Source of the DNA: a virus
Taxonomy: Duplodnaviria > Heunggongvirae > Uroviricota > Caudoviricetes
Length of the DNA: 64,000 nt
IMG/VR virus record: IMGVR_UViG_2974594660_000001
Coordinates: 1 to 64,000 of that record
Strand: one strand, 5' to 3'
The notes beneath the pieces were generated by a model that saw nothing but the letters and a program-made list of their open reading frames with translations, was not told where the DNA came from and did not search any database. Every line of letters begins with the position of its first letter. Within the stretch, counting starts at the first letter, position 1. Shown here in pieces: positions 22,856 to 36,157 of the stretch. The position numbers and the translations under genes are program-made.

Positions 22856-23983
22856 TTATCCTTTTACATTAACAACAGGTTTAATATAGTGTAAAACTTC
22901 TACAAGATCTTCTTGAAGTCTCATAACATCAAAAATATCTTTGTAGGCAAAAGGTGATTCATCTATCGTTGATTCACCAACAGTAGCACCTGGGATATCT
23001 TTCATAGACTCTTTAAAGGATTCTAGTGTTACCTCTTTCTTAGCCTTAGAACGACTCATAACACGACCAGCACCATGAGAGGAGCTGTTCATGCTTTCTG
23101 GATTACCTTTACCACGAACAATGAAACAACCATCACGCATATTTCCAGGAATAACTCCCATCATTCCTTCATCAGCATGTGTTGCTCCTTTTCGGTGAAT
23201 CCATAAATTATCTTTGAATTCAGCATGGTTATGGTTCCTATTAATAATAGAATTACCATCCATAGTGAACCCATTAACAGAGCATACACGCTGTGCAATA
23301 TATTCACGATTCGCCAGTGCAAACTGAAGACCATATTCTAAATCTAGGATATAATCTCTGCCCTCTTCAGAAGTCTCTAATAGATGGCATGCACTTTCAG
23401 CTTTCCCATCATCTCCAGAAGCCATTTTCATATAGAGAGATGCAATTCCATGACCAATAGAACGACTACCAGAGTGGATAGTCAACCAAACTTGATCTTC
23501 TTCATCATATCCAATTTCAATGAAATGATTTCCTCCACCAAGAGTTCCAATACAATTTGGAGCATGACCAAGGATATCATTAATTCTGCTGGAGTGCTTA
23601 GGTAGTAATTTTTGAGATAACCACTTACTTGCTTCTTGAAGATTTTCATTTTTAGAGAAACCTACAGGAACCACTGAAAATATTTTATCTCTGATAGTTT
23701 CAGCATTATTAATTAATTCTTCTTTTGTTACACCAAGAAGTTTTACAGAGAACATACCACATCCAATATCGTATCCAACAAATGATGGGTATATTGTCCC
23801 AGCTGTTGAGACAACTGCACCAATTGGAAGTACATATCCAGAGTGGGCGTCAGGCATTAATGCACCTTGGACTACATCAGGAAGTGACATAACATTAACA
23901 AATTGATCTATTGCACCTGATTCTAAATACTCTGCATAAATTTTATAAGGTTTATTTAATTCTTCTAGTTTTTTAAGTTTCAT
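22856..23983 (-). CDS. rtcB: RtcB-family RNA 3'-phosphate ligase
   Basis: MPDAHSGYVLPIG, GGGNHFIEIG, HSGSRSIGH and NHNHAEF match the conserved RtcB metal-binding and active-site motifs. Confidence 0.8.
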   Translation of the reverse strand: MKLKKLEELNKPYKIYAEYLESGAIDQFVNVMSLPDVVQGALMPDAHSGYVLPIGAVVSTAGTIYPSFVGYDIGCGMFSVKLLGVTKEELINNAETIRDKIFSVVPVGFSKNENLQEASKWLSQKLLPKHSSRINDILGHAPNCIGTLGGGNHFIEIGYDEEDQVWLTIHSGSRSIGHGIASLYMKMASGDDGKAESACHLLETSEEGRDYILDLEYGLQFALANREYIAQRVCSVNGFTMDGNSIINRNHNHAEFKDNLWIHRKGATHADEGMMGVIPGNMRDGCFIVRGKGNPESMNSSSHGAGRVMSRSKAKKEVTLESFKESMKDIPGATVGESTIDESPFAYKDIFDVMRLQEDLVEVLHYIKPVVNVKG

Positions 23984-24967: not shown

Positions 24968-25093
24968 AATAACTCACTTTGTTTGTGGAGAATGGTGGAT
25001 TCCAACCACCCACCCCACCTTGGGTAGCGAACTATCGGATGTTTGATAGACATACGCCCAAGGTAGAGTTGCCGCATGCATCCCCATAGAATT

Positions 25094-25168
25094 GGCACCC
25101 TGTACAGGATTCGAACCTGTGACCTACGATTTAGAAGATCGTTGCTCTCTCCACTGAGCTAACAAGGT
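25094..25168 (-). tRNA. tRNA-Arg (anticodon TCT)
   Basis: Cloverleaf read off the minus strand: acceptor ACCTTGT/ACAGGGT, T-arm ACAGGTTCGAATCCTGT, anticodon loop CTTCTAA, and encoded CCA. Confidence 0.75.
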
Positions 25169-25175
25169 TAATTGG

Positions 25176-25249
25176 TGGCCCTTGCTGGACTTGAACCAGC
25201 GACCAATCAGTTATGAGCTGATCGCTCTAACCATCTGAGCTAAAGGGCC
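25176..25249 (-). tRNA. tRNA-Met or tRNA-Ile2 (anticodon CAT)
   Basis: GGCCCTTTAGCTCAGATGG... with anticodon loop CTCATAA, T-arm TGGTTCAAGTCCAGC, and encoded CCA. Confidence 0.75.
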
Positions 25250-26261: not shown

Positions 26262-26276
26262 ATTATACCTTTTATC

Positions 26277-26348
26277 GCTCCGTGTAGGAATCGAACCTAC
26301 AACTATCTCTTAGGAGGAGATTATTATATCCATTTAACTAACAGAGCA
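26277..26348 (-). tRNA. tRNA-Arg (anticodon CCT), no encoded CCA
   Basis: GCTCTGT acceptor, anticodon arm ATCTC-CTCCTAA-GAGAT, T-arm GTAGGTTCGATTCCTAC. Confidence 0.6.
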
Positions 26349-26352
26349 TCGA

Positions 26353-26568
26353 TTATTTTTTAAAAAATGGATGTGCAACTGCAATAGTCCAACCAATCGT
26401 CACAGTAGTCATAACTATATAAAACAATGTTGCCTCATTGTCACCAATTTGAGTATAACGACCTAAGTTATATGACTGAACCGCTGTGATTAAAACAGCT
26501 ACAAATGTTTTAAACATAATTAACTCCAGTAAAAAGGTAGCACCTAAGTGCCACCTATCACTTATCAA
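26353..26568 (-). CDS. small membrane protein
   Basis: 71 aa with two TM helices. Confidence 0.3.
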   Translation of the reverse strand: MISDRWHLGATFLLELIMFKTFVAVLITAVQSYNLGRYTQIGDNEATLFYIVMTTVTIGWTIAVAHPFFKK

Positions 26569-27221
26569 TAATTACGGAGAACTGTTCGGGTTAAGTCGGT
26601 TAATGTTTTATCAGTAGTATTTTCACCAATAACAGTAACTTCCCAACCAGAACCAGTTCGATCAAGTCGAGCAAGAATAGCGCATTCTTTTCCTGCGAAC
26701 TTCTTGTCATTTTCCATGTTAAACTCAGCAATCTTCATACCTTTTCCGTCTTTAACAAGACCATCATAGATGTTAATTCCAATATATGGAATCTCATCAA
26801 ACTTCTGATGTGAGTATGAATTCAGAACTGCATACATATGCTTAACATTACTTGGAACTTTCAGACCTTTGATAGTGATGATTTCATTATCCATTCCATC
26901 ATCTTCATCATCGCCTGAACGATCATCGCCAGTGTGAGTTACAGAGCCACACGAGGAACGTAACTTGCCAAAGTAAACAATGTCAACTTTCTTTTTATCA
27001 CCATCAGCTAAGATTAATGATAAGTCCAAATCAACATCTTCTAAGATAGCTTTCTCTGCACCAACAAAAGATAAAGCTTTACCTAATAAACCAGAAGCTT
27101 TTGATGTTCCAGCACGATTGATTTTACCCCAGTTAACACCAAAGGAGATATCAATAACTGGTGTACCTTTCTCGTTTAAAAGGCGAGTTGTTTCATTTTT
27201 ATTTAATACTAAAGTTGACAT
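26565..27221 (-). CDS. TerD-domain protein
   Basis: GVNWGK, DLDLSLIL and GDDRSGDDEDDGMDNEIITI resemble TerD calcium-binding motifs. Confidence 0.6.
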   Translation of the reverse strand: MSTLVLNKNETTRLLNEKGTPVIDISFGVNWGKINRAGTSKASGLLGKALSFVGAEKAILEDVDLDLSLILADGDKKKVDIVYFGKLRSSCGSVTHTGDDRSGDDEDDGMDNEIITIKGLKVPSNVKHMYAVLNSYSHQKFDEIPYIGINIYDGLVKDGKGMKIAEFNMENDKKFAGKECAILARLDRTGSGWEVTVIGENTTDKTLTDLTRTVLRNY

Positions 27222-27230
27222 TATTTATCC

Positions 27231-28880
27231 TTAAATATAGAGCTTTAAATTATTTTTAATACGAGATTCAATCTCAGACCAATCAGTTGTTGTTACTTCA
27301 CCATCCTTAAAAATGGTTAACAGTGAAGTGTTCTCTTCTTCTTCAACTGTTGCTTTGTCCTTGAATTTCAGGACTCCATCTTCATAGTAATGGTAAATGA
27401 GACCAGTTAATGATTTCTTACCAGGATCAGTAATTGGATCTTTCATTACTTCACGTGCTTCACCATTAACAACACCGTATGTTGCTTTGATTGCAAAACC
27501 AAAGGTATCACGGGTAATGTACTGATATGTGAATGCACCTACACCAAATACTACCGCAGACGATGCATATCCTTTATCATGTAAACGTTCCATGATTTCA
27601 TTAGCACGCTGTTTAGTGATTGAATCACCATAAAGAACGCCAACATGTGGATCAAGAACTTTGAAACCTTTTGAGTTTACAGAGTGACCAAAGATTTCAT
27701 CAAGTAACTGAACAACACCCTTCATTTCTGGAGTTAGTTTATCAATTTGAGACCATTTGAAATCAAATCCAACATCTTTATCTTCTAAATAAGATGCAAT
27801 ATATTTCTTCCCATTGATGGTTTCAATAATGAAATCGGTAATTTCTCGATCATAACGCTGACATAAAATATCATGAACATCATCAACAGTGTGATAATCA
27901 AGTTTTGTAACGTTACAGCAAATAACTGGCAAACCGCAAAGAATATCAGCTGGATCACCTGAATCAGGACGTGTTACCACTTTACCATCTCTGGAAAGAA
28001 TGACATCTTTTAACTCACGTAAGATATTATCAACATGGTTCCATGTATCCCAAGTATCATTTACGATTGATACAATACCTGTTGGCGTTGTTTCTGTGAT
28101 AAGACGACGAACAGTATCAAGTTCACCATCTTTCATCCCCATGCACATTACAGAGTGTTCTGTTGCATCTACCGAACCACCACGTTCTGTTTTGTAAACG
28201 TGCTCAAACATCTCACGACCAAAAACAGAATCAGTACCTTGGAACACAGATAAATGAGCCATGCCAGCAATTGCTGATGCATAGATACCATAGTCACCAC
28301 GACTACTGAAATCATGACCTTGCCAATCAACATGTGAGTTATCATCACAATTTCGAATTGCCCATTGTTCACAGAGTAATCGGAAATGGAATGCTGTTGT
28401 TGCAGAAGTGATGATAGGCCACATCTCTGCACTGATTAAGGTTTCAAGATAATTAACAAGCCAGAAGAAATCTGGATGAGTATTCTTGATGGTTAACATT
28501 GGTGTTCCAACATCAACAACCTCACCCTCTGGAACAACTTTAATTTCCAGTGGCAGATACCCAAGTTTATGAAGCGCCTTAATTCGACTTATATCGTAAT
28601 CTTTACCTAAGTAACGATCAACAGAACGTTTCATTTCTTCGCAGATGCTTTCATCTTTTTGGAAGAATTCAGAATCAAATTCTTCTTTAATCCAATTAAC
28701 AACAAAAGCTTGGAAGCCAAAGCTGAGGATTTTTGGATCATCAGTTACTTGTCTTTCTGAAAAACGTCTTGCATTACGTGGAACAAAGTTGCCATAAATA
28801 AGGCTTGTACCCTCTGGGTATTGATTTGCATGGGCTAGTTTATAACCATCAATTGCAAAAATAGGAGAAAGTCTTTTCAT
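27231..28880 (-). CDS. nadV: nicotinamide phosphoribosyltransferase (NAMPT/NadV)
   Basis: 549 aa. N-terminal AIDGYKLAHANQYPEGT and the overall length and motif pattern are typical of NAMPT-family type II PRTases. Confidence 0.8.
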   Translation of the reverse strand: MKRLSPIFAIDGYKLAHANQYPEGTSLIYGNFVPRNARRFSERQVTDDPKILSFGFQAFVVNWIKEEFDSEFFQKDESICEEMKRSVDRYLGKDYDISRIKALHKLGYLPLEIKVVPEGEVVDVGTPMLTIKNTHPDFFWLVNYLETLISAEMWPIITSATTAFHFRLLCEQWAIRNCDDNSHVDWQGHDFSSRGDYGIYASAIAGMAHLSVFQGTDSVFGREMFEHVYKTERGGSVDATEHSVMCMGMKDGELDTVRRLITETTPTGIVSIVNDTWDTWNHVDNILRELKDVILSRDGKVVTRPDSGDPADILCGLPVICCNVTKLDYHTVDDVHDILCQRYDREITDFIIETINGKKYIASYLEDKDVGFDFKWSQIDKLTPEMKGVVQLLDEIFGHSVNSKGFKVLDPHVGVLYGDSITKQRANEIMERLHDKGYASSAVVFGVGAFTYQYITRDTFGFAIKATYGVVNGEAREVMKDPITDPGKKSLTGLIYHYYEDGVLKFKDKATVEEEENTSLLTIFKDGEVTTTDWSEIESRIKNNLKLYI

Positions 28881-29173
28881 TATTCGTCCAGTTCTATTTC
28901 GATTGTTTTAATTTTACCGATAACTCTAACGTTTGATCCTGGCTTGACTATAACTGTCATGGCATCTTCAAGTCTTAGATACATATTATCCCCAAGAGAG
29001 AAAGATGCTACTCTAATAAAACTTGCTTTATCCCAACTAGCCAGTTCATACACAAGACCATCATTGGGTTTGGTCATACGTGATAGAATATAAGGCTTTT
29101 TTCTATCAGATGTTATTTTCTTTAGGAATTCAGGTGTTTTCAATTGTAACCTCAATTTTGTCAATTTTACCAA
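28880..29173 (-). CDS. hypothetical protein, member of a tandem paralog trio
   Basis: About 95 aa. Shares the GSELLxK...L..LE...L pattern with the next two ORFs. Confidence 0.35.
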   Translation of the reverse strand: MVKLTKLRLQLKTPEFLKKITSDRKKPYILSRMTKPNDGLVYELASWDKASFIRVASFSLGDNMYLRLEDAMTVIVKPGSNVRVIGKIKTIEIELDE

Positions 29174-29408
29174 TACTTTTCAATAAAATCCCGTATGGTA
29201 AGTGTACACTTTCGAGGTTCCTGAGATTTAAAAAAGAGATATGGTTATTATCTTCAATTTTATCTTGAGTTTTAATTAGCAACTCACTACCATCAAAAAT
29301 TGTTGATGATCCATATAGTTTATAAACAATAGATCCATCAAACTTAACTTCACCAGATTGTATTGGTTTTTCAGACTCTATGTTTACCTTTAGAACTGAT
29401 GTTTTCAA
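29130..29408 (-). CDS. hypothetical protein, member of a tandem paralog trio
   Basis: See 28880..29173. Confidence 0.35.
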   Translation of the reverse strand: MKTSVLKVNIESEKPIQSGEVKFDGSIVYKLYGSSTIFDGSELLIKTQDKIEDNNHISFLNLRNLESVHLPYGILLKSIGKIDKIEVTIENT

Positions 29409-29670
29409 GAACCACCTCCACTTTATCTAAATAACCAACTTCTTCTAGTTTGAAGTCATTTTGTATATATACAAATTCCATGTTTGATAAATCAATGAAA
29501 GATGATGATCCAAGTTTCTCTCTATGATTTTTCGCTCTTAATAGTAATTCACTTCCATTAAAAGCTGGAGAATCATTATAAGACTTGTAGACTGTTTTAT
29601 AATCAAGCTTTACGTCGCAAGCCCTTGTTGATTTATTTTTGTTTTCTTTTACTACTAAATAACCACTCAT
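29371..29670 (-). CDS. hypothetical protein, member of a tandem paralog trio
   Basis: See 28880..29173. Confidence 0.35.
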   Translation of the reverse strand: MSGYLVVKENKNKSTRACDVKLDYKTVYKSYNDSPAFNGSELLLRAKNHREKLGSSSFIDLSNMEFVYIQNDFKLEEVGYLDKVEVVLENISSKGKHRV

Positions 29671-29672
29671 TG

Positions 29673-30473
29673 CTACTTACTCCAATCATAAACAGCATGA
29701 ACATGATCAATAACACCATCAAAAACTTCTTTACCTTTTGAAAAGATACCGTTTGTAACAAACAGTGATATTGACTCAGGATTACCTTTTTCTCTTAAAG
29801 CTTTGGCGACTTCAATAAAGGTTCGACCGCCATCACAGATATCATCAACAATGATTAAATTAGCGTCACAGTAGTCAAGAGAAGTATTAACCTCTACGCC
29901 TGTAATCTCACCAGTTGATGTATCACGAATCTTGCTTGCATGTATTACAGGCTTATTATAGATTTTTGATAACTCATGAATCTTTTTATCAGCCCCTGCA
30001 TCGGGTGATACAAAAATTGTTTTACCTTTAAACATCTCGCCGATTGGAAGAGCGTGTCTGTGTTGCATAAATACTTGAGATTGCGTAATTACACTGGATT
30101 TATTAATAAGTGCAGGGGCAACATCAGAGTGTGGATCAATTAGTATAACTTCATCTGCATTCATTGAGTTCACAATGTTTGCAAACACTTTTAAAGAGAA
30201 ACACTCTTTCTTAGATGTTACTCGATCTTGTCTGGCAAATGGCAAGTATTCAAAGATAATTCTTAGGCTACCATTTCTAACCTGCATTCGACTGACAACA
30301 TCATGAATTAATAGCATATCAATTACTTCATCAGAGGATCGCAAGGAGCAAATGATTTCTACATCAATTACAGATACAGGAGGTGTAGATAAGAGTTTAG
30401 CGTGACGTTCACCACCATTGAATGAGAATAAATCAAACTCTTGAGGTATACCATTCATTGTTACATGAATCAT
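29673..30473 (-). CDS. prs: ribose-phosphate pyrophosphokinase (PRPP synthetase)-like
   Basis: PRPP-binding loop LIIVDDICDGGRTF. It lies beside NAMPT, whose substrate is PRPP. Confidence 0.7.
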   Translation of the reverse strand: MIHVTMNGIPQEFDLFSFNGGERHAKLLSTPPVSVIDVEIICSLRSSDEVIDMLLIHDVVSRMQVRNGSLRIIFEYLPFARQDRVTSKKECFSLKVFANIVNSMNADEVILIDPHSDVAPALINKSSVITQSQVFMQHRHALPIGEMFKGKTIFVSPDAGADKKIHELSKIYNKPVIHASKIRDTSTGEITGVEVNTSLDYCDANLIIVDDICDGGRTFIEVAKALREKGNPESISLFVTNGIFSKGKEVFDGVIDHVHAVYDWSK

Positions 30474-30787
30474 TCTAAATCCTCCACATATTTTTTATAC
30501 CACTTATCAACCTTTTTACTGATTGAATCTTCCAGTAAAGAGATGAAGTTTTCTTTAGTAATGAACCCTTTGCTACGAGCATAAAGAAAAGCGCAATCAA
30601 CAGAAGAAATAATAATGTCAGCAGTTTCATTGGCTACATTCTCCATTGGTTCACTGTATAAAACAGCAGATTGAAGTTCTCCTGATTCTTCTCCAACCTT
30701 TAATGCTACATCTTTTGGATCTCTTGCCAGACCAGCAACAAATGATGTATCTAATATTTTATTTAGAGATTCCATACTTATCTTCAT
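30470..30787 (-). CDS. MazG-like nucleoside triphosphate pyrophosphohydrolase
   Basis: VGEESGELQSAV is an EExxE metal-binding helix. Size is about 100 aa. Confidence 0.5.
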   Translation of the reverse strand: MKISMESLNKILDTSFVAGLARDPKDVALKVGEESGELQSAVLYSEPMENVANETADIIISSVDCAFLYARSKGFITKENFISLLEDSISKKVDKWYKKYVEDLE

Positions 30788-31019
30788 CCCCTTTATGGAA
30801 ACTATTATTCACAGAATATGTTTCATCAATTTCTGATTGAATCAATGTTTCGACTACAACATTATCTAATTTCTTAGCCTCAGAATTTTTATCTGACTTA
30901 TTTGCCATATAGATAAATATAAAAGTAATGACAAAGATTAAAATAACACCACCTATCATTTGACCACTACTTCCACTTCCAGTGATTCTTGGATCACCTA
31001 GGTTGTCATCATCAATCAT
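30759..31019 (-). CDS. small membrane protein
   Basis: One TM segment (GGVILIFVITFIFIYMA). Confidence 0.3.
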   Translation of the reverse strand: MIDDDNLGDPRITGSGSSGQMIGGVILIFVITFIFIYMANKSDKNSEAKKLDNVVVETLIQSEIDETYSVNNSFHKGDEDKYGISK

Positions 31020-31111
31020 TAGCTTTCATACCAGTGTATTATTAAAATGATAAGGTATATAACTAAGAAAAAATGATACATCATATACCTCCTTATATTA
31101 TGTGCAATAAC

Positions 31112-31678
31112 TTATCGACCAATTTTTGTGCAATTTGGCATATCTTTTAATCCAATCTTAACCTCTGGGATTAAATCAACTGCCAGTTTTAAGAAGCTTA
31201 CTGGTACTCTATCACATGATGGTCGATCTCTGTTTATCTTAACCAATTCATCAAACTGTTTTTCAAATAGTTTGTAGCAGAACTGCATACCATAGTAATC
31301 AGCTAGAATTTTCCACTCACTGATCGTTTTGAGGTTAAAGTTAGTATTACAGATAATGATTTCTTTTATCTGTTTTTGTTTGGACAAGGAGATGACTTGT
31401 GCTTCCATCATACTCTTCATAAGAGCTAATGTTTCTTTGTCATTTAATTTGGAAAAGAATTCTTTCTTATCCATATCACCAAACAAAGTAGTACGCAAAT
31501 TATCTAAACTAACAACTGCAACTTTTCCAATGTTATCTTTACAACGCTTATTAGTCCAAGTTGTTTTACCTGCACCAGCAGATCCAATTGTTAAAATAAG
31601 TTTAATCATTTTTAATATCCCAATAACAGTAAACTGCACTGCCAATAATACATACAGATAAGAATAAGACATGACCAA
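31112..31678 (-). CDS. P-loop kinase (AAA_33/polynucleotide-kinase-like or nucleotide kinase)
   Basis: Walker A GSAGAGKTTW near the N-terminus. Confidence 0.45.
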   Translation of the reverse strand: MVMSYSYLYVLLAVQFTVIGILKMIKLILTIGSAGAGKTTWTNKRCKDNIGKVAVVSLDNLRTTLFGDMDKKEFFSKLNDKETLALMKSMMEAQVISLSKQKQIKEIIICNTNFNLKTISEWKILADYYGMQFCYKLFEKQFDELVKINRDRPSCDRVPVSFLKLAVDLIPEVKIGLKDMPNCTKIGR

Positions 31679-31717
31679 TTATTAGGTAGATTAATTTAGT
31701 TACTTGATAATCCATAA

Positions 31718-31990
31718 TTACCTCAACTGAGAGTCTTTAGAACCTCTTCTGTTGTAACCAGAGAATGTCTTGACATCTTTTAATGATTGACACTCTATGC
31801 AGAACTTAACACCTTTTAAAGCTTTTCTACGAGCTTCTGGTATAGGTTCACCACACTCTAAGCAGAACATTTCACTCTCACCTTTTGGTAAGTTTGCTCT
31901 TGCTCTTAAAATGCCATCATCAATAGTGGCTTTAATAGTATCTTGGAAATTGTCTATATTTCCGAAGCCAACTGCCATATTACACCTCAA
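31718..31990 (-). CDS. DksA/TraR-family C4 zinc-finger protein
   Basis: CLECGEPIPEARRKALKGVKFCIECQ. Confidence 0.55.
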   Translation of the reverse strand: MRCNMAVGFGNIDNFQDTIKATIDDGILRARANLPKGESEMFCLECGEPIPEARRKALKGVKFCIECQSLKDVKTFSGYNRRGSKDSQLR

Positions 31991-32362
31991 TAAAAATTGC
32001 CTACTTGTGATACCAGCCCAGACCTATCATTTGGTAACATACTAACCATTAAAGTTGAACCCAGGGTTTAATAATGGTTACTGTTTATTGAATATTTTAT
32101 AAAGCATATTAAAACTATTATATAAGCTTTATTATCTAACTTTTAATTTTTAAACTCTTATGTTAAATAAGATGATTCCTGTGTGGGAGGTACATCGCCC
32201 TCTCCACTATGGAGTCGAACCATATCATCTCATTATTTTTTGAATTTTCAAATTATCAGTTTGATACAACATTTATTTATTCTACCAGTTCAAAATGTTG
32301 TCAAAACTATAGGAGTATGTTTTATATAATATCGGTACTACAAGTAGGACTTTTAATTTATA

Positions 32363-32992
32363 TTACAAAGTAATCATTGTCACGGAATTGATTTCATTGA
32401 TTGCAACATCAACTTCCATTGCAAAATCATTCAAATCTGTTTCCATTTCCTTAAGCTTGGTACTTACTTTCAACGGATCAATCAATGATGCATATCCAGA
32501 CTTCTCTTCTGAAACACGAACTGCTTCAACCATTTCTGCTGTAGCACTTGTAAGGTTTTTAGTTTTCTCAGCAATACTATCAGAGAGTTTGGTATTGATG
32601 AGATTAACACGAGAAGACTCAGTTAATACATTAGCTTTCCAGTGAGCGATCATATTTAACTGATGACTACACATGTTTTTCAAATCTATCGCTTCTGCAA
32701 TTGTATAGTTTTTACCTGAAATAGTAACAACAGTTGTTGCATTAGATAAGTTTACAAGTTGCTTAAGGTGTGAACGTTCTTTAATCAAATCAATAATAGA
32801 TTGGAAATTAGATGTTACAGCTTTTTCAGCATCTTCAATTGTTTTGTAAACTGGATTACGTGGCTTGGCTTGTTGATCTTTACCAATGGCAACTTCAACA
32901 ATATTACCATCAGCGCCTTTACTTAAACGATCAGTTATAGTTTTAATCCGAACAAGAGCACGAGCAATTGAGATTTTAACTTCTTCTGACAT
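32363..32992 (-). CDS. hypothetical protein
   Basis: 209 aa ORF. Confidence 0.4.
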   Translation of the reverse strand: MSEEVKISIARALVRIKTITDRLSKGADGNIVEVAIGKDQQAKPRNPVYKTIEDAEKAVTSNFQSIIDLIKERSHLKQLVNLSNATTVVTISGKNYTIAEAIDLKNMCSHQLNMIAHWKANVLTESSRVNLINTKLSDSIAEKTKNLTSATAEMVEAVRVSEEKSGYASLIDPLKVSTKLKEMETDLNDFAMEVDVAINEINSVTMITL

Positions 32993-33060
32993 TTTGATTA
33001 CCTTTTAATTTTTAAAGTTTAATAAAGTGGCAACTTTGTGTTACCACTTATGATAAATAC

Positions 33061-33276
33061 TTAAACGTTCTTCCATTCAGTAATACCTGATAGGATTTCA
33101 ACCCCATCAAGTTTACGGTCTTTGTGGTTTTTAAGCTCACGAGTGAACACTGGGTTTTTAACATCTGAACCCTCTACCACTTCTTCAGAGTAAACAGCCT
33201 TGGTGAAAGCACCTTTATTTTTAACAATAACAACAGCACCAACTTCAGGACGTTTTTCTGAGATATTTAAGAACAT
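33061..33276 (-). CDS. hypothetical small protein
   Basis: 71 aa ORF. Confidence 0.3.
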   Translation of the reverse strand: MFLNISEKRPEVGAVVIVKNKGAFTKAVYSEEVVEGSDVKNPVFTRELKNHKDRKLDGVEILSGITEWKNV

Positions 33277-33355
33277 ATTAATTTTACCTTTAATTTAAAT
33301 TAAGATTAGGAGTCGCTCAAGCTCCCTCAAGCGACTTATTACTAATGGTAGATAC

Positions 33356-33940
33356 TTATGCTTTACGTGACTCTAAAATGTCAGCCAGACCGTTCTTAGA
33401 GCTTTCACCAACTGGTTCTGCTAGGTTGGTAACTTGCCACTCACCATTAGCATCTTTTTCAAGCATTACGAATTCAACAGCAGTAGAGAATGCCGCATTT
33501 TCATCAAGTTTAGCTTCAAATAAAACCTTATCATCATCACCATATAAACGGGCAACTGGATTTGTTGAAGCTGCAAAAGGAATCGCATCACCTGCACTGT
33601 AAGATGTAACAGCGATTAGTAATTTATTAGCTTGTACTTTTGTTAAGTCAATTTCGATTGTTTCATCGTCACCATCAGCTGCACCATCACGAGCGTCACC
33701 GTAGTGAACAACACCAGCAACAGGGTTTTCTTTGTTGCCATGCTCATTGCCAGTACAATTACCATAATAGGCAATGTTGTCTGTATCAGGCTGTTTGATT
33801 TTACCGTTATCATCTAACGCAACAAGTACAGCATCTAAGTCTGCACTCTCATCCCAAGCTAAACCAAAGCGTAACTTTGTTAGAGATTTTGCTGCTTTTG
33901 ACATGTTGATAGTTTGGTTTTTGCTTAATACGATAGACAT
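33356..33940 (-). CDS. terD: TerD-family stress protein
   Basis: Canonical TerD blocks: GLAWDE, DLDAVLVALDDNGK, GDARDGAADGDDETIEIDL. Confidence 0.8.
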   Translation of the reverse strand: MSIVLSKNQTINMSKAAKSLTKLRFGLAWDESADLDAVLVALDDNGKIKQPDTDNIAYYGNCTGNEHGNKENPVAGVVHYGDARDGAADGDDETIEIDLTKVQANKLLIAVTSYSAGDAIPFAASTNPVARLYGDDDKVLFEAKLDENAAFSTAVEFVMLEKDANGEWQVTNLAEPVGESSKNGLADILESRKA

Positions 33941-34043
33941 ATATTAACTTCCTTATGAACGTTAAGGCATTATTGCCAGACATAATATTTACTACACAAT
34001 AAAATATGTTAGGGGTCTTGAACTAACAACCCCTAAAGGTATT

Positions 34044-34352
34044 TTATCGGATTTGCATGCTTGTGATATCAATGCTACCAATAACAATCAAACGTGGTTT
34101 TGCTTGAGGGTTATGCATTTTATTTGAACGATAACCACTACAACCAGTGCGAAGATTAGATACATATAACCCACGACTAGTTTTTCCAGTAACAGCGTAT
34201 AAATCACCGTTGTTACCTTTATAAACATCACCATTAATTAACATTGACGCTGATTTAATTTGTGACTTCTTGAATTTCTTAACTTGATATTTTAAAGTTG
34301 CCATCTGTCTGTACCTTTTACAGTTGTTTGATTTTAATGGATAGTTAAACAT
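34044..34352 (-). CDS. hypothetical basic protein
   Basis: 102 aa ORF. Confidence 0.35.
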   Translation of the reverse strand: MFNYPLKSNNCKRYRQMATLKYQVKKFKKSQIKSASMLINGDVYKGNNGDLYAVTGKTSRGLYVSNLRTGCSGYRSNKMHNPQAKPRLIVIGSIDITSMQIR

Positions 34353-34405
34353 TAATATAAATGCTTAATAATAGAGCTACAATAAGTAGCCCTATGGTTA
34401 AGAAC

Positions 34406-35317
34406 TTATTTCTTGTTCAATGATTTAATAACACCCATACCAAGTAGTGATAGGACTATAATCAAAGATAAGACTGGATTTACATGTAAACCAATTGTTG
34501 ATGCAATTAATTTTAGACCAACAAAAATTAACACATAACCAACATATGTTTCCAGCTCACTTAGCTTCTTAATCAAAGTATCTAGTATAAAGAACAACGC
34601 CCTTAATCCAAGAATTGCCATGATTATAGCTGCATACACTAAGGTTGGTTCCTCAGTGATTGAAATGACAGCAGGTACACTATCGAACGAGAACATGATA
34701 TCACTGAACTCGATAGCCACCATACAAAGGAAAACAGGAGTAACATATTTAATACCATTAACGAAATGGAAGAAACGATCACCAGATGAAGTACCTGTGT
34801 AAACAGGGTAAAACTTCTTGACCATCTTGATGAACCATTTGTCATCATAATTGACAACTTCTTCTTCATCACCGCCACCTTTTAAAATTGCGTAAGCAGA
34901 CCATAGAACAATAAGTCCGAATACAACCTGAACTAATGGGTGTAGGTTAAACAACGATGTACCAAGGCTAACAAAGATTCCACGGAAAATTAATGCACCT
35001 GCAATACCCCATAAGAGTATTCGATGTTTTGTATGTGCATCTTTAATACCGAAGTAAGAAAAGATTGCAATGAATACAACCAAGTTATCAATTGATAAAA
35101 CCTTTTCCATAACATAGCCACTATAATAGTGAACCATACTTGTTGTGCCCATTAACATCCACACAATAATACCAAAGGCAATACCAATACCAACCCAGAA
35201 TACAGACCACATACAACTTTCACGGAAAGTCATTTCTTTCTTGTTTCCATGACCAATAAAATCAAAGAAAATAGAAACTGAAATGACCATAGCCATTGCA
35301 ATGTAAATACCAATCAT
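34406..35317 (-). CDS. terC: TerC-family integral membrane protein
   Basis: Multi-pass membrane protein of about 300 aa with TerC-like helices and repeated SxDNxxV-type segments. Confidence 0.65.
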   Translation of the reverse strand: MIGIYIAMAMVISVSIFFDFIGHGNKKEMTFRESCMWSVFWVGIGIAFGIIVWMLMGTTSMVHYYSGYVMEKVLSIDNLVVFIAIFSYFGIKDAHTKHRILLWGIAGALIFRGIFVSLGTSLFNLHPLVQVVFGLIVLWSAYAILKGGGDEEEVVNYDDKWFIKMVKKFYPVYTGTSSGDRFFHFVNGIKYVTPVFLCMVAIEFSDIMFSFDSVPAVISITEEPTLVYAAIIMAILGLRALFFILDTLIKKLSELETYVGYVLIFVGLKLIASTIGLHVNPVLSLIIVLSLLGMGVIKSLNKK

Positions 35318-35572: not shown

Positions 35573-36157
35573 TTAGAACCCTACCGCAAAGCCAGCACCA
35601 ATCGCATGATCTTGTTCTGAGTTATGGCTAAATGATAACCGAACAGCAGTTGACCGTGTAGGTTTAATTTGAGCACCAACCGCTACTGCATTTTCGCCAT
35701 TATACCAACCGCCACCAACACCAACACTGAATGTATCTCCGTCAACATAAGGGATATTAGACATAGCTGCTACGCCAGAGATACCAGCAGACATTTTCTT
35801 TTCGCTTGTACGCATCCACTTCTGAACATCACCACGCAAGGCACCAACCTGATTGTCGGTGTAAGCAACACCACTTGATGAGGTAGCGACTAATTGATCA
35901 CCAAAATATTGTTCTGTTTGGTGTAATTTGTCGTCAGTGTACTTGTTAGAAACCTTAATGGCTTCACTTTTACGAACATCAGTGTAATCATTAGAGCGTT
36001 GCTCTGCATCTAATGTTTCTTGATGACTTGTTAGGTACAACTCATAAGCATGTGCCTGCTCATAGGAAAGATCAGGATACTTCTCTTCCAATGTTTGGGC
36101 AAACGCAGTAGAGGCAAGCAATAAGCCAGATACTAAGGCAATGATTTGTTTTTTCAT
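35573..36157 (-). CDS. outer-membrane beta-barrel protein (Ail/Lom/OmpX-like)
   Basis: Signal peptide MKKQIIALVSGLLLASTAFA, alternating aromatic/Gly strands, and a C-terminal ...GFAVGF with terminal Phe. Confidence 0.5.
   Translation of the reverse strand: MKKQIIALVSGLLLASTAFAQTLEEKYPDLSYEQAHAYELYLTSHQETLDAEQRSNDYTDVRKSEAIKVSNKYTDDKLHQTEQYFGDQLVATSSSGVAYTDNQVGALRGDVQKWMRTSEKKMSAGISGVAAMSNIPYVDGDTFSVGVGGGWYNGENAVAVGAQIKPTRSTAVRLSFSHNSEQDHAIGAGFAVGF

What the first reader, a model, noticed from the sequence alone, without database searches (positions are those of the whole stretch)
26565..35317. Ter-like stress module (two TerD, TerC) interleaved with an NAD-salvage and PRPP module (NAMPT, Prs, MazG-like, P-loop kinase)
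Two divergent TerD paralogs and a TerC membrane protein sit in the same leftward arm as nicotinamide phosphoribosyltransferase, a PRPP synthetase-like enzyme, a MazG-like pyrophosphohydrolase and a P-loop kinase. NAMPT and Prs together give a PRPP-fed route to nicotinamide mononucleotide; other large phages carry nadV, but with an NMNAT partner that I do not see here. Comparative-genomics work has predicted that TerD and TerC associate with phosphoribosyltransferases, ATP-grasp enzymes and C-N ligases to make a nucleoside-like metabolite. This phage appears to carry a compact version of that association next to the amidoligase cluster. The end product, whether NAD boosting against NAD-depleting defences or a novel ribosylated metabolite, is unknown.
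Basis: partly seen in the sequence, partly recalled or inferred. Interest (0 to 1): 0.7.

Follow-up and report, generated by a model that had tools for sequence, protein, structure and literature searches.

The report
Known NARP1 operon beside Ter cassette
This stretch of a Cronobacter phage holds the already described two-enzyme NARP1 pathway, which rebuilds NAD+ to defeat NAD-depleting bacterial defences, next to a separate TerC/TerD cassette that most likely handles calcium-type ions; it is not a new nucleoside-making pathway.

Summary
The window is Cronobacter phage vB_CsaP_009 (Privateervirus). All the gene calls in the finding are correct.

The 'NAMPT + Prs-like, no NMNAT' pair is NARP1, with Adps as gp46 and Namat as gp42. 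Both genes are already listed for this phage in the supplementary tables of the NARP1 discovery paper. The sequence tests agree:
- gp46 fails every Prs cut-off and is 37% identical to the validated Bas63 Adps.
- gp42 keeps the catalytic Arg and both aromatic residues of the Namat clamp helix.

NARP1 makes NAD+ directly from ADP-ribose and nicotinamide, so no NMNAT is needed.

TerC, TerD and a TerZ-like TerD form a separate cassette that moves between phage families.
- It occurs without adjacent NARP1 in Felix-O1-like phages.
- In other phages the same TerD pair sits beside a PMCA-type Ca2+ ATPase (48 of 58 IMG/VR loci) or a Na/Ca exchanger.
- This points to divalent-cation handling. It does not support a Ter-linked phosphoribosyltransferase pathway, because the PRTase families that define that pathway are absent here.

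The MazG-like gene and the Pnk kinase domain are lineage-specific neighbours.

Two loose ends remain:
- Three fast-evolving small paralogues are nested inside NARP1.
- A second, unrelated phage lineage also has the TerD pair abutting NARP1.

The parts
29673..30473 (-). gp46, Adps (ADP-ribose pyrophosphate synthetase), the first enzyme of NARP1; annotated as ribose-phosphate pyrophosphokinase
   Evidence: Listed as LC519601_00048 in the Adps table of Osterman et al., with Namat neighbour 'Yes'. It is 37% identical (E=1e-49) to the validated Bas63 Adps and 34% identical to the SPbetaL1 Adps. The best canonical Prs structure scores only E=3.5e-13. It falls below every NCBIfam Prs cut-off, for example 103 bits against 113 for TIGR01251. 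K181 aligns with the essential K162 of SPbetaL1, and the DDICDGGRTF loop is conserved.
27231..28880 (-). gp42, Namat (nicotinamide ADP-ribose transferase), the second enzyme of NARP1; annotated as NAMPT
   Evidence: Listed as LC519601_00044, 'Adps-associated'. The best solved structures are the SPbetaL1 Namat entries 9W5X and 9W5W (E=1.8e-125), against about 1e-61 for mammalian NAMPT. R304 aligns with the catalytic R306, and the ATEHSVMC histidine motif is kept. The clamp helix reads GAFTYQY, matching F392 and Y396 of Namat, whereas Xanthomonas Nampt has GGALLQK. It carries an insertion of about 67 aa (residues 319-385) relative to SPbetaL1 Namat.
28880..29670 (-). gp43 (28880-29143), gp44 (29130-29408) and gp45 (29371-29670): three divergent small paralogues nested between Adps and Namat
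26565..27221 (-). gp41, TerD-domain protein of the TerZ-like type (TerD2); last gene of the NARP1 transcription unit
   Evidence: Pfam TerD E=9.8e-20. The best plasmid matches are annotated TerZ or 'TerD family', at 31-38% identity. The DLD.S and HxGDD..G...DNE motifs are invariant in 7 phage orthologues. It starts 9 bp after the Namat stop codon.
26535..26556 (-). terminator-like hairpin directly after the TerD2 stop codon
   Evidence: A 9-bp stem with 5 G-C pairs, followed by a T run.
33356..33940 (-). gp54, TerD-domain protein of the canonical TerD type (TerD1)
   Evidence: Pfam TerD E=3.3e-24. Aligns end to end with Klebsiella TerD 2KXT (E=1e-14), including GDARDGAADGDDE against GDNRTGEGDGDDE. 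The best plasmid matches are annotated terD, at about 34% identity.
34406..35317 (-). gp56, TerC/Alx-family membrane protein
   Evidence: PF03741 E=2.5e-41. TIGR03718 'TerC/Alx family metal homeostasis membrane protein' scores 292.6 bits against a cut-off of 246.4.
30470..30775 (-). gp47, small MazG/HisE-like all-alpha NTP pyrophosphohydrolase; a neighbour, not part of NARP1
   Evidence: phrog_1247 E=2.3e-14; Pfam PRA-PH is below its cut-off. Orthologues in GAP52, BUCT695 and 7-11 lie about 30 kb from NARP1.
31112..31609 (-). gp49, polynucleotide 5'-kinase domain (T4 Pnk-like, no phosphatase domain); a neighbour, probably part of RNA repair
   Evidence: 1LY1 (T4 Pnk kinase domain) E=1.2e-11; phrog_505 E=1.3e-23. 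RtcB is annotated at 22856-23983.
31718..31978 (-). gp51, DksA/TraR-type zinc-finger protein; first gene of the unit that contains NARP1
   Evidence: PF01258 E=1.2e-11. A promoter-like site lies at 32146-32117. Privateer annotates a terminator just upstream of its orthologue.
32363..32992 (-). gp52, inserted gene of unknown function (phrog_1491, labelled 'tail fiber'), followed by 370 bp of non-coding DNA
   Evidence: Absent from Privateer and J3S at this position; present in one metagenomic relative. No Pfam hit.

Best explanation
The region holds two separable modules, plus unrelated early genes, in the leftward arm of a virulent C3-type podophage.

Module 1 is NARP1.
- gp46 (Adps) transfers pyrophosphate from ATP to the 1'' hydroxyl of ADP-ribose, giving ADPR-PP.
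- gp42 (Namat) then joins ADPR-PP to nicotinamide, giving NAD+ and PPi.
- The pathway therefore rebuilds NAD+ from the two products that NAD-depleting defences leave behind (SIR2-HerA, Thoeris, DSR1/2, SEFIR). It needs no NMNAT and no host salvage enzymes.
- The chemistry is taken from published work on homologues. That gp46 and gp42 belong to those families is shown here by sequence. Their activity is inferred.

Module 2 is a three-gene Ter cassette: an Alx-type TerC, a TerD and a TerZ-like TerD.
- It moves between phage families.
- I infer that it handles divalent cations. The two cytosolic TerD beta-sandwich proteins would bind Ca2+, and TerC would act as the membrane exporter.
- The reason is that in other phages the same TerD pair sits directly beside a PMCA-type Ca2+ ATPase or a Na/Ca exchanger instead of TerC.
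- Its benefit to the phage is not known. Possibilities are keeping the infected cell's ion balance stable, or excluding competing phages as bacterial ter operons do.

In Privateervirus a rearrangement placed NARP1 between TerD1 and TerD2, so TerD2 is co-transcribed with Namat.

The MazG-like gene, the Pnk kinase domain and the DksA-like gene are neighbours without a conserved link to either module.
For: NARP1:
- This phage's two genes are in the discovery paper's own tables.
- gp46 is much closer to validated Adps than to Prs, and fails all Prs cut-offs.
- The essential Lys and the DDICDGG loop are conserved.
- gp42's best structural match is the SPbetaL1 Namat. Its catalytic Arg and His and both clamp-helix aromatic residues are conserved.
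- 79 of 80 related Adps loci in IMG/VR have Namat adjacent.

The two modules are separable:
- GAP52 and BUCT695 have Adps-Namat-TerC-TerD1-TerD2.
- Phage 7-11 has NARP1 but no TerD.
- Arno18, Wc4 and P778 (Felix-O1-like) have TerC-TerD1-TerD2, while NARP1 lies elsewhere in Arno18 and Wc4 and is not seen within about 12 kb in P778.
- Only 1 of 80 NARP1 loci has TerD or TerC nearby.

Cation reading of the Ter cassette:
- 56 of 58 IMG/VR loci have a tandem TerD pair.
- In 48 of them a P-type ATPase follows directly. The two representatives tested pass the TIGR01517 PMCA-type Ca2+ ATPase cut-off, at 642 and 654 bits against 507.
- Vibrio phages 1.084.O and D93 have three TerD genes followed by a Na_Ca_ex exchanger.
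- gp56 passes the TerC/Alx model.
- TerC-family proteins export Mn2+ and metalate secreted enzymes (PMC10197570, PMC10550928).
- The acidic TerD motifs are conserved.

Neighbours: the MazG-like gene is far from NARP1 in sister genera, and gp49 is a T4 Pnk kinase domain.
Against: - No enzyme assay or phage knock-out exists for this phage.
- Namat homologues can still make NMN from PRPP in vitro (PMC12774641), so some NMN production is not excluded.
- The Namat selectivity loop is 6 residues longer than in the solved structure, so its stacking residue cannot be named with confidence.
- The cation role of the Ter cassette rests on gene neighbourhood and family knowledge only. TerC substrates shown so far are Mn2+ and possibly Zn2+, not Ca2+.
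- The TerD pair abuts NARP1 in a second, unrelated lineage of 149-249 kb contigs, in two different gene orders and with no transporter detected nearby. This argues against the two modules being fully independent.
Confidence: 0.8

Rival explanations
1. One reading: gp46 is a PRPP synthetase that feeds gp42, a true NAMPT. The phage would make NMN, and host NadR or PncC would convert it to NAD+.
For: - Pfam and NCBIfam name the proteins this way. gp42 passes the NF006629 cut-off at 495 bits against 405.
- Namat keeps about half of human NAMPT's NMN-forming activity in vitro (PMC12774641).
Against: - gp46 fails every Prs cut-off and groups with validated Adps.
- gp42 carries the Namat-specific clamp-helix aromatic residues.
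- For the homologous Bas63 operon, anti-defence activity did not need host pncC or nadR, and the predicted reactions were shown not to be the real ones.
Confidence: 0.06
2. A compact Ter-dependent biosynthetic system: TerD and TerC work with the phosphoribosyltransferases, and with the nearby ATP-grasp and amidoligase genes, to make a nucleoside-like metabolite, as predicted for bacterial Ter systems.
For: - The genes are physically close.
- The Ter-PRTase association does exist in phages. Phage phi92 has HAD, PRTase_3 (PF15610, E=6e-41), a Macro-domain protein and TerC in a row, with TelA and TerD a few kb further on. IMG/VR locus L075 has TerC, HAD and PRTase_3 near TerD.
Against: - gp46 and gp42 belong to other families (Prs-like Adps and type II NAMPT-like Namat), not PRTase_1/2/3.
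- No HAD protein was found among the ORFs scanned.
- According to the notes in the GAP52 record, the amidoligase cluster is shared with phage 7-11, which lacks TerD.
- The Ter trio occurs without adjacent NARP1 elsewhere.
Confidence: 0.03
3. The TerD pair is functionally coupled to NARP1. For example, the TerD proteins might bind ADPR-type or NAD-derived ligands, regulate Adps or Namat, or deal with ion fluxes caused by NADase-linked defence effectors.
For: - The adjacency is kept in three Grimontviridae genera despite a rearrangement, and TerD2 is co-transcribed with Namat here.
- An independent lineage (L021, L023, L032; its Namat is only 35-45% identical to the Grimontviridae Namats) also has the TerD pair directly beside NARP1, in two different orders.
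- At least five of roughly eleven TerD-positive isolate lineages carry NARP1 somewhere in the genome, against 4.3% of phages overall. The count of eleven lineages is my own rough grouping of the hits.
Against: - Among 80 NARP1 loci, none besides Privateer has TerD within 10 kb, whereas the known accessory Macro domain is found in 12.
- Most TerD pairs (52 of 58) sit beside, or within 10 kb of, a cation transporter rather than NARP1.
- Accessory genes of large virulent phages tend to cluster, which inflates chance adjacency.
Confidence: 0.12
4. The Ter cassette is mainly a superinfection-exclusion device. It would reproduce the phage-inhibition and colicin-resistance phenotype of bacterial and plasmid ter operons, protecting the infected cell from rival phages.
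For: - Bacterial ter clusters confer phage inhibition (Whelan et al. 1995, cited in PMC7881722).
- Iyer et al. 2021 proposed this role for Ter genes in jumbo and some smaller phages (PMC7824862).
- This reading is compatible with a cation-based mechanism.
Against: - The phage carries no TerA, TerB or TelA; I did not look for TerE or TerF specifically.
- No PADLOC model matched.
- No experiment has been done on any phage-encoded Ter gene.
Confidence: 0.3

Closest known systems
NARP1 (Adps + Namat) of phages Bas63, SPbetaL1 and Fado (Osterman et al. 2024)
   Same: - The same two protein families lie in the same operon.
- The catalytic Lys and DDICDGG loop of Adps are conserved.
- The catalytic Arg and His and the clamp-helix Phe and Tyr of Namat are conserved.
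- No NMNAT is present.
- This phage's genes appear in that paper's tables.
   Different: - Three small fast-evolving paralogues lie between the two genes.
- Namat has an insertion of about 67 aa, and Bas63 Namat also carries extra sequence at the same position.
- A TerD-domain gene is the last gene of the operon.
- Activity has not been tested for this phage.
NARP1-AP (with the Macro-domain ADPR-1''-phosphatase Adpp) and RyDEP-containing NARP1 operons
   Same: Extra genes are nested in or attached to the NARP1 operon. I recovered the Macro association in 12 of 80 IMG/VR NARP1 loci, which matches the published 15%.
   Different: No Macro or RyR domain is present here. The nested genes gp43-45 are SH3-like proteins with no homologues outside Privateervirus-like phages and no known function. 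This phage does not appear in the supplementary files of the aRES/NARP1-AP preprint that are held as text.
NARP2 / KVP40-type NadV + NatV salvage, and NARP3 (PnuC + NadR-like)
   Same: Both rebuild NAD+ during infection. NARP2 uses a NAMPT-family enzyme.
   Different: No NMNAT or NadR-like enzyme was seen. The phage does encode a PnuC-like protein, but at 75 kb, outside the window, and it is paired with a nucleoside 2-deoxyribosyltransferase-like gene rather than NadR.
Bacterial and plasmid terZABCDE(F) tellurite-resistance / phage-inhibition operon (e.g. IncHI2 R478)
   Same: TerC, TerD and TerZ-like proteins are present, and the acidic TerD motifs are conserved.
   Different: - Only three of the genes are present; no TerA, TerB or TelA.
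- Identity to plasmid genes is 31-38%, so this is not a recent capture.
- By the NCBIfam model, TerC is of the Alx type.
Ter-associated PRTase/HAD system (Anantharaman, Iyer and Aravind 2012), as seen in phage phi92 and Acinetobacter phage ME3
   Same: TerC and TerD lie in one phage region together with enzymes of phosphoribosyl chemistry.
   Different: The defining PRTase_3-type PRTase and HAD phosphatase are present in phi92 but absent here. The phosphoribosyl-type enzymes here are Adps and Namat.
Phage-encoded Ca2+-translocating P-type ATPases (Jug phages, Sci Adv 2026, PMC12880540)
   Same: Phages carry a Ca2+ exporter, and the same genomes carry TerD genes.
   Different: In the passages I read, that paper treats TerD and the ATPase separately and notes only a small unknown gene upstream of the ATPase. 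In 48 of 58 IMG/VR loci I found the TerD pair directly upstream of the ATPase. The phage studied here has TerC at that position, not an ATPase.

Membership tests
NARP1: Adps | Belongs to the Adps clade rather than to canonical Prs | tested here: met
   37% identical (E=1e-49) to Bas63 Adps and 34% identical to SPbetaL1 Adps. The best canonical Prs structure scores E=3.5e-13. Listed in the published Adps table.
NARP1: Adps | The catalytic Lys (SPbetaL1 K162, Lys185 in the solved Adps) and the acceptor and donor residues (RQDR, DPHSD, PDAGA, DDICDGG) are conserved | tested here: met
   K181 aligns with K162. The motifs are invariant in an 8-sequence Adps alignment. Residue roles are taken from PMC13586617.
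Canonical ribose-phosphate pyrophosphokinase (Prs) | Reaches the curated NCBIfam or Pfam thresholds for Prs | tested here: not met
   TIGR01251 scores 103 bits against a cut-off of 113. All equivalog models are far below their cut-offs, for example 89.7 against 296. Pfam Pribosyltran_N scores 23.6 against 25, and Pribosyl_synth 18.2 against 27.
NARP1: Namat | A NAMPT-like gene lies in the immediate vicinity of adps | tested here: met
   The two genes are 793 bp apart in the same tightly packed operon. 79 of 80 related Adps loci also have Namat adjacent.
NARP1: Namat | The Nampt-like catalytic core is conserved (Arg306, catalytic His) | tested here: met
   R304 in KVVTRPDS aligns with R306. ATEHSVMC is identical to SPbetaL1. 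Mutant data are in PMC12774641.
NARP1: Namat | The selectivity-clamp helix carries two aromatic residues (F392 and Y396 in SPbetaL1) | tested here: met
   The query reads VGAFTYQY and SPbetaL1 reads IGSFTYQY, whereas Xanthomonas Nampt reads MGGALLQK.
NARP1: Namat | The selectivity-clamp loop supplies a stacking residue (R40 in SPbetaL1) | tested here: inconclusive
   R38 aligns with R40, but the loop is 6 residues longer. The paper describes this loop as variable.
NARP1 | Makes NAD+ from ADPR, ATP and nicotinamide, and rescues the phage from NAD-depleting defence | not testable with these tools
   Needs enzyme assays and phage genetics.
NARP1-AP / RyDEP-extended NARP1 | A Macro-domain ADPR-1''-phosphatase or a RyR-domain glycosidase lies in the operon | tested here: not met
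   No Macro or RyR hit in any ORF from 26.3 to 36.5 kb. Not listed in the supplement of the aRES paper.
NARP2 | An NMNAT partner is present (NatV-like, HIGH nucleotidyltransferase) | tested here: not met
   None among the ORFs scanned in the region and none annotated in the record at 1-47 kb or 71-79 kb. The rest of the genome was not read.
Ter-associated nucleoside-metabolite system (Anantharaman et al. 2012) | A PRTase of the Ter-linked families (e.g. PF15610 PRTase_3) and a HAD phosphatase lie beside the Ter genes | tested here: not met
   There are no such hits here. The same search finds PRTase_3 (E=6e-41) and HAD in phi92.
TerD family | The TerD domain scores above the Pfam threshold and the acidic metal-binding motifs are present | tested here: met
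   71.2 and 85.8 bits against a cut-off of 25.3. GD.R.G...GDDE aligns with Klebsiella TerD 2KXT. The motifs are invariant among orthologues. That these motifs bind Ca2+ is from my own knowledge of the TerD structure work.
TerC/Alx family | Reaches the curated subfamily threshold | tested here: met
   TIGR03718 scores 292.6 bits against a cut-off of 246.4.
Complete bacterial ter operon | TerA, TerB and TelA are present alongside TerC, TerD and TerZ | tested here: not met
   No TerB or TelA domains in the region. The small ORFs between the Ter genes are not conserved between lineages. TerE and TerF were not looked for specifically.
MazG/HisE-like NTP pyrophosphohydrolase | Reaches the family threshold | tested here: inconclusive
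   Pfam PRA-PH scores 18.6 bits against 21.3. TIGR03188 scores 23.9 against 42.7. PHROG MazG-like E=2.3e-14. There is no solved-structure hit by sequence. The Privateer record cites HHpred probability 98.5% to 5IE9.
T4 polynucleotide kinase/phosphatase | Both the kinase domain and the 3'-phosphatase domain are present | tested here: not met
   Only the kinase domain is present. The 165-aa protein aligns to residues 1-138 of T4 Pnk.

The most novel reading that the evidence does not exclude
Phage TerD pairs may be Ca2+-binding partners of interchangeable Ca2+ exporters (TerC, CaCA exchanger, PMCA-type ATPase). In two unrelated phage lineages this ion module has been built into the NARP1 operon. 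That would mean ion handling and NAD+ reconstitution act together against the same defences, for example NADase systems whose effectors or ADPR-derived signals disturb ion balance. The three fast-evolving SH3-like proteins nested in NARP1 (gp43-45) would then be a new class of NARP1-attached anti-defence factors.
Probability: 0.12. Interest if true: 0.7.

Novelty: already known. Interest (0 to 1): 0.3.

Why it matters
The main point is a correction. A 'NAMPT + Prs without NMNAT' pair in a phage should be read as NARP1, a published counter-defence pathway. Standard profile libraries still name both enzymes wrongly: gp42 passes an NCBIfam 'nicotinate phosphoribosyltransferase' equivalog.

The useful residue is about the Ter genes, whose role in phages has never been tested. 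Across phages, the TerD pair is almost always beside a cation exporter of one of three unrelated kinds. This gives a concrete hypothesis that can be tested: Ca2+-type ion handling.

The repeated joining of TerD to NARP1, and the hypervariable small genes inside the operon, are leads for new counter-defence functions.

Tried and rejected
- **PADLOC scan.** The Ter, MazG, kinase and small ORFs gave no hit.
- **gp43-45 against known NARP1 add-ons.** They have no Macro or RyR domain. The one aRad1 sequence I could read (aRad1a) shows no obvious resemblance; this was by eye, no alignment was run.
- **MazG-like gene as a NARP1 accessory.** Rejected, because its orthologues are about 30 kb from NARP1 in GAP52, BUCT695 and 7-11.
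- **P-loop kinase as a nicotinamide-riboside kinase.** Rejected, because it is a T4 Pnk kinase domain.
- **Privateer's 'second nicotinate ribosyltransferase'.** It is a PnuC-like transporter outside the window. Pfam scans of candidate ORFs at 2-9 kb found nothing related to NAD.
- **Small ORFs between the Ter genes as conserved cassette parts.** Rejected, because they are not conserved between lineages.
- **blastn of the L032 TerD region against isolate phages.** No match, so that lineage remains unidentified.
- **Genome-wide TerD x NARP1 co-occurrence in isolates.** This could not be completed, because hit lists are capped at 60 rows.

Full report
**Identity of the window and check of the observation**

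The 8.75-kb region is 100% identical to Cronobacter phage vB_CsaP_009 (LC519601 / NC_048664; 92,122 bp; Grimontviridae, Privateervirus). Window coordinates equal record coordinates. It is 90-96% identical to the Proteus phages Privateer, J3S and 3H10_20.

- TerD, 26565-27221
- NAMPT-like, 27231-28880
- Prs-like, 29673-30473
- MazG-like, 30470-30775 (weak in Pfam, clear in PHROGs)
- P-loop kinase, 31112-31609
- TerD, 33356-33940
- TerC, 34406-35317

The two TerD proteins are 29% identical.

**The NAMPT/Prs pair is NARP1**

Osterman et al. (bioRxiv 10.1101/2024.02.11.579819) started from exactly this Pfam picture: Prs plus Nampt, with no NMNAT. They showed that the predicted reactions are not the real ones.
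- The Prs-like enzyme, Adps, makes ADPR-pyrophosphate from ADP-ribose and ATP.
- The Nampt-like enzyme, Namat, joins ADPR-PP to nicotinamide and gives NAD+.
- The pathway works without host PncC or NadR.

Their supplementary tables list LC519601_00048 (gp46) as an Adps with a Namat neighbour, and LC519601_00044 (gp42) as 'Adps-associated'. The Privateer orthologues are listed too.

I tested membership independently.

For gp46:
- It is 37% identical (E=1e-49) to the genetically validated Bas63 Adps and 34% identical to the biochemically characterised SPbetaL1 Adps.
- The best canonical Prs structure reaches only E=3.5e-13, and every NCBIfam Prs model is below its cut-off.
- K181 aligns with the Lys whose K162A mutant the authors list as inactive in SPbetaL1. 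The RQDR, DPHSD, PDAGA and DDICDGGRTF motifs named in the Adps structure paper are conserved.

For gp42:
- Its best solved relatives are the SPbetaL1 Namat entries 9W5X and 9W5W (E=1.8e-125), against about 1e-61 for mammalian NAMPT.
- R304 aligns with the catalytic R306.
- The 'selectivity clamp helix' carries both Namat-specific aromatic residues (GAFTYQY). Xanthomonas Nampt has GGALLQK at that position.
- The variable clamp loop is 6 residues longer, so that single feature is inconclusive.

The missing NMNAT is therefore expected, not puzzling.

**The other genes in the operon**

The genes from gp48 to gp41 overlap or are separated by fewer than 10 bp, and a strong hairpin terminator follows the TerD2 stop codon.

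The MazG-like gene overlaps the Adps start codon. However, its orthologues in the sister genera (GAP52, BUCT695, 7-11) lie about 30 kb away from NARP1, so the adjacency is a Privateervirus rearrangement.

The kinase is a T4 Pnk kinase domain without the phosphatase half. It fits with the RtcB ligase annotated 8 kb downstream rather than with NAD metabolism.

No Macro domain (NARP1-AP) or RyR domain (RyDEP) is present.

**The Ter genes are a separate, mobile cassette**

In GAP52 (Crifsvirus) and BUCT695 (Libingvirus) the order is Adps-Namat-x-TerC-x-TerD1-x-TerD2. In Privateervirus, NARP1 sits between TerD1 and TerD2.

Two observations show that the modules are separable:
- Salmonella phage 7-11 has the NARP1 pair but no TerD.
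- The same TerC-TerD1-TerD2 trio is contiguous in the Felix-O1-like phages Arno18 and P778. NARP1 lies elsewhere in the Arno18 and Wc4 genomes and is not seen within about 12 kb in P778.

Other phages carry other Ter combinations:
- An N4-like Vibrio phage has TerD-TerB-TerC-TerB.
- Phage phi92 has HAD, PRTase_3 and a Macro-domain protein directly upstream of TerC, with TelA and TerD further along. This is the genuine Ter-PRTase association predicted by Anantharaman et al. and discussed for phages by Iyer et al. 2021.

None of those PRTase or HAD families is present in this window, so the 'compact version of that association' is not supported.

TerD1 resembles plasmid TerD and TerD2 resembles TerZ, each at about 31-38% identity. 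gp56 passes the TerC/Alx model.

**What the Ter cassette most likely does**

I scanned IMG/VR with an alignment of TerD2-type proteins and obtained 58 loci, of which 56 have a tandem TerD pair.
- In 48 loci the next gene is a P-type ATPase. These ATPases are 48-100% identical to the two query ATPases.
- The two representatives tested pass the NCBIfam equivalog cut-off for PMCA-type Ca2+-translocating ATPases, at 642 and 654 bits against 507.
- Three more loci have TerC and one has a Na/Ca exchanger.
- The isolate Vibrio phages 1.084.O and D93 have three TerD genes followed by a Na_Ca_ex exchanger.

So the TerD pair is linked to a membrane cation exporter of one of three unrelated kinds. This is classic non-homologous replacement and points to Ca2+-type ion handling.

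It agrees with two pieces of background:
- TerD is a Ca2+-binding fold (my own knowledge of the Klebsiella TerD structure work). The acidic motifs are conserved here.
- TerC proteins act as Mn2+ exporters and metal chaperones (PMC10197570, PMC10550928).

A 2026 paper on gut jumbo phages reports phage Ca2+ ATPases and TerD genes. In the passages I read, it treats them separately.

The benefit to the phage is not established. Stabilising the infected cell and excluding rival phages, as bacterial ter operons do, are both possible.

**Is TerD coupled to NARP1?**

The reverse test argues against a general link. Among the 80 IMG/VR loci most similar to gp46, 79 have Namat and 12 have a Macro-domain gene, which matches the published 15%. 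Only Privateer itself has TerD or TerC within 10 kb.

The forward test found one more lineage with the link. Three contigs of 149-249 kb (L021, L023, L032) have the TerD pair directly beside Adps and Namat, in two different orders. Their NARP1 proteins are no closer to the Grimontviridae ones than to those of other phage groups (a crAss-like Namat, a Stephanstirmvirinae Adps).

Several other TerD-positive isolates carry NARP1 elsewhere in the genome.

I take this as a weak but real hint of coupling and give it about 0.12.

**Unexpected detail inside NARP1**

Three small ORFs (gp43, gp44, gp45) lie between Adps and Namat. They are divergent paralogues.
- Privateer has one copy. J3S, 009 and a metagenomic relative have three.
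- The copy next to Namat is only 51-53% identical between 009 and Privateer, while the flanking proteins are 90-99% identical.
- The family has 5 clusters among 5.8 billion proteins, all from Privateervirus-like contigs.
- The model is an SH3-like beta barrel with no informative structural match.

Known accessory genes also nest at this position in other NARP1 operons, so an anti-defence role is a reasonable guess. It remains only a guess.

**Verdict**

The gene identifications are correct. The central pathway is already known and already catalogued for this very phage. The Ter link to a nucleoside-like metabolite is not supported. The Ter cassette is best read as an ion-handling module that happens to sit beside NARP1 in this phage family, and may interact with it.

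Interest is modest (0.3). It comes from the TerD-exporter pattern and from the nested hypervariable genes, not from the finding as it was written.

Noticed in passing
window 28880-29670 (-): Three divergent paralogous small ORFs (gp43-45, 87-99 aa, predicted SH3-like beta barrels) are nested between Adps and Namat. Copy number varies (1 or 3) between near-identical phages. The copy next to Namat is only about 52% identical between 009 and Privateer, while the flanking proteins are 90-99% identical. No homologues exist outside Privateervirus-like contigs.
   Followed up: yes
IMG/VR loci L019-L073 (e.g. L039 9277-13108; L019 9356-13516): In 48 of 58 viral contigs found with a TerD2-type query, the tandem TerD pair is directly followed by a P-type ATPase. 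The two representatives tested pass the PMCA-type Ca2+ ATPase cut-off (TIGR01517). In the passages I read, the 2026 paper on phage Ca2+ ATPases does not mention this adjacency.
   Followed up: yes
L007 9221-13521 (Vibrio phage 1.084.O); L010 11272-14867 (Vibrio phage D93): Three tandem TerD genes are followed by a Na_Ca_ex (CaCA) exchanger. In 1.084.O a K+-channel-like protein also follows. These take the place of TerC.
   Followed up: partly
L023 9800-15586; L032 5012-11121 (IMG/VR contigs of 149 and 249 kb): In a second, unrelated phage lineage the TerD pair directly abuts Adps and Namat, in two different gene orders, upstream of a Dda-like helicase. In L023 a 313-aa ORF on the opposite strand interrupts the NARP1 operon. 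There is no nucleotide match to any isolate phage.
   Followed up: partly
L004 5172-14531 (phage phi92): HAD hydrolase, PRTase_3 (PF15610), a Macro-domain protein, TerC, TelA and TerD lie in one block. This is a real Ter-PRTase system in a phage. The Macro-domain protein is reminiscent of the ADPR-1''-phosphatase Adpp.
   Followed up: partly
NC_048664 record 75049-76246 (outside the window): The phage also encodes a PnuC-like nicotinamide-riboside transporter next to a nucleoside 2-deoxyribosyltransferase-like gene. The Privateer paper called the former a second 'nicotinate ribosyltransferase'. The pair could supply nicotinamide to Namat, or could be half of a NARP3-like route.
   Followed up: partly
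window 32363-32992 (-) and 31990-32363: gp52 (209 aa, phrog_1491 labelled 'tail fiber', no Pfam hit) plus 370 bp of non-coding DNA with a promoter-like site is an insertion. It is absent from Privateer and J3S at this position.
   Followed up: partly
window 27231-28880, residues 319-385 of gp42: Namat carries an insertion of about 67 aa after the RPDSGDP motif, relative to the solved SPbetaL1 Namat. Bas63 Namat also has extra sequence at the same place. Its function is unknown.
   Followed up: no
window 25093-25249 and 26275-26348 (-): tRNA-Arg(TCT), tRNA-Met(CAT) and tRNA-Arg(CCT) lie just downstream of the NARP1/TerD2 terminator.
   Followed up: no
window 35573-36157 (-): gp58 has a YadA-like trimeric-autotransporter membrane anchor (PF03895, E=4.6e-10) and a signal-peptide-like N-terminus. 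It sits in the early arm just upstream of TerC and is annotated 'tail protein'.
   Followed up: no
window 27231-28880: gp42 passes the NCBIfam equivalog NF006629 'nicotinate phosphoribosyltransferase' (495 bits against a cut-off of 405). Automatic annotation will therefore keep misnaming Namat enzymes.
   Followed up: yes
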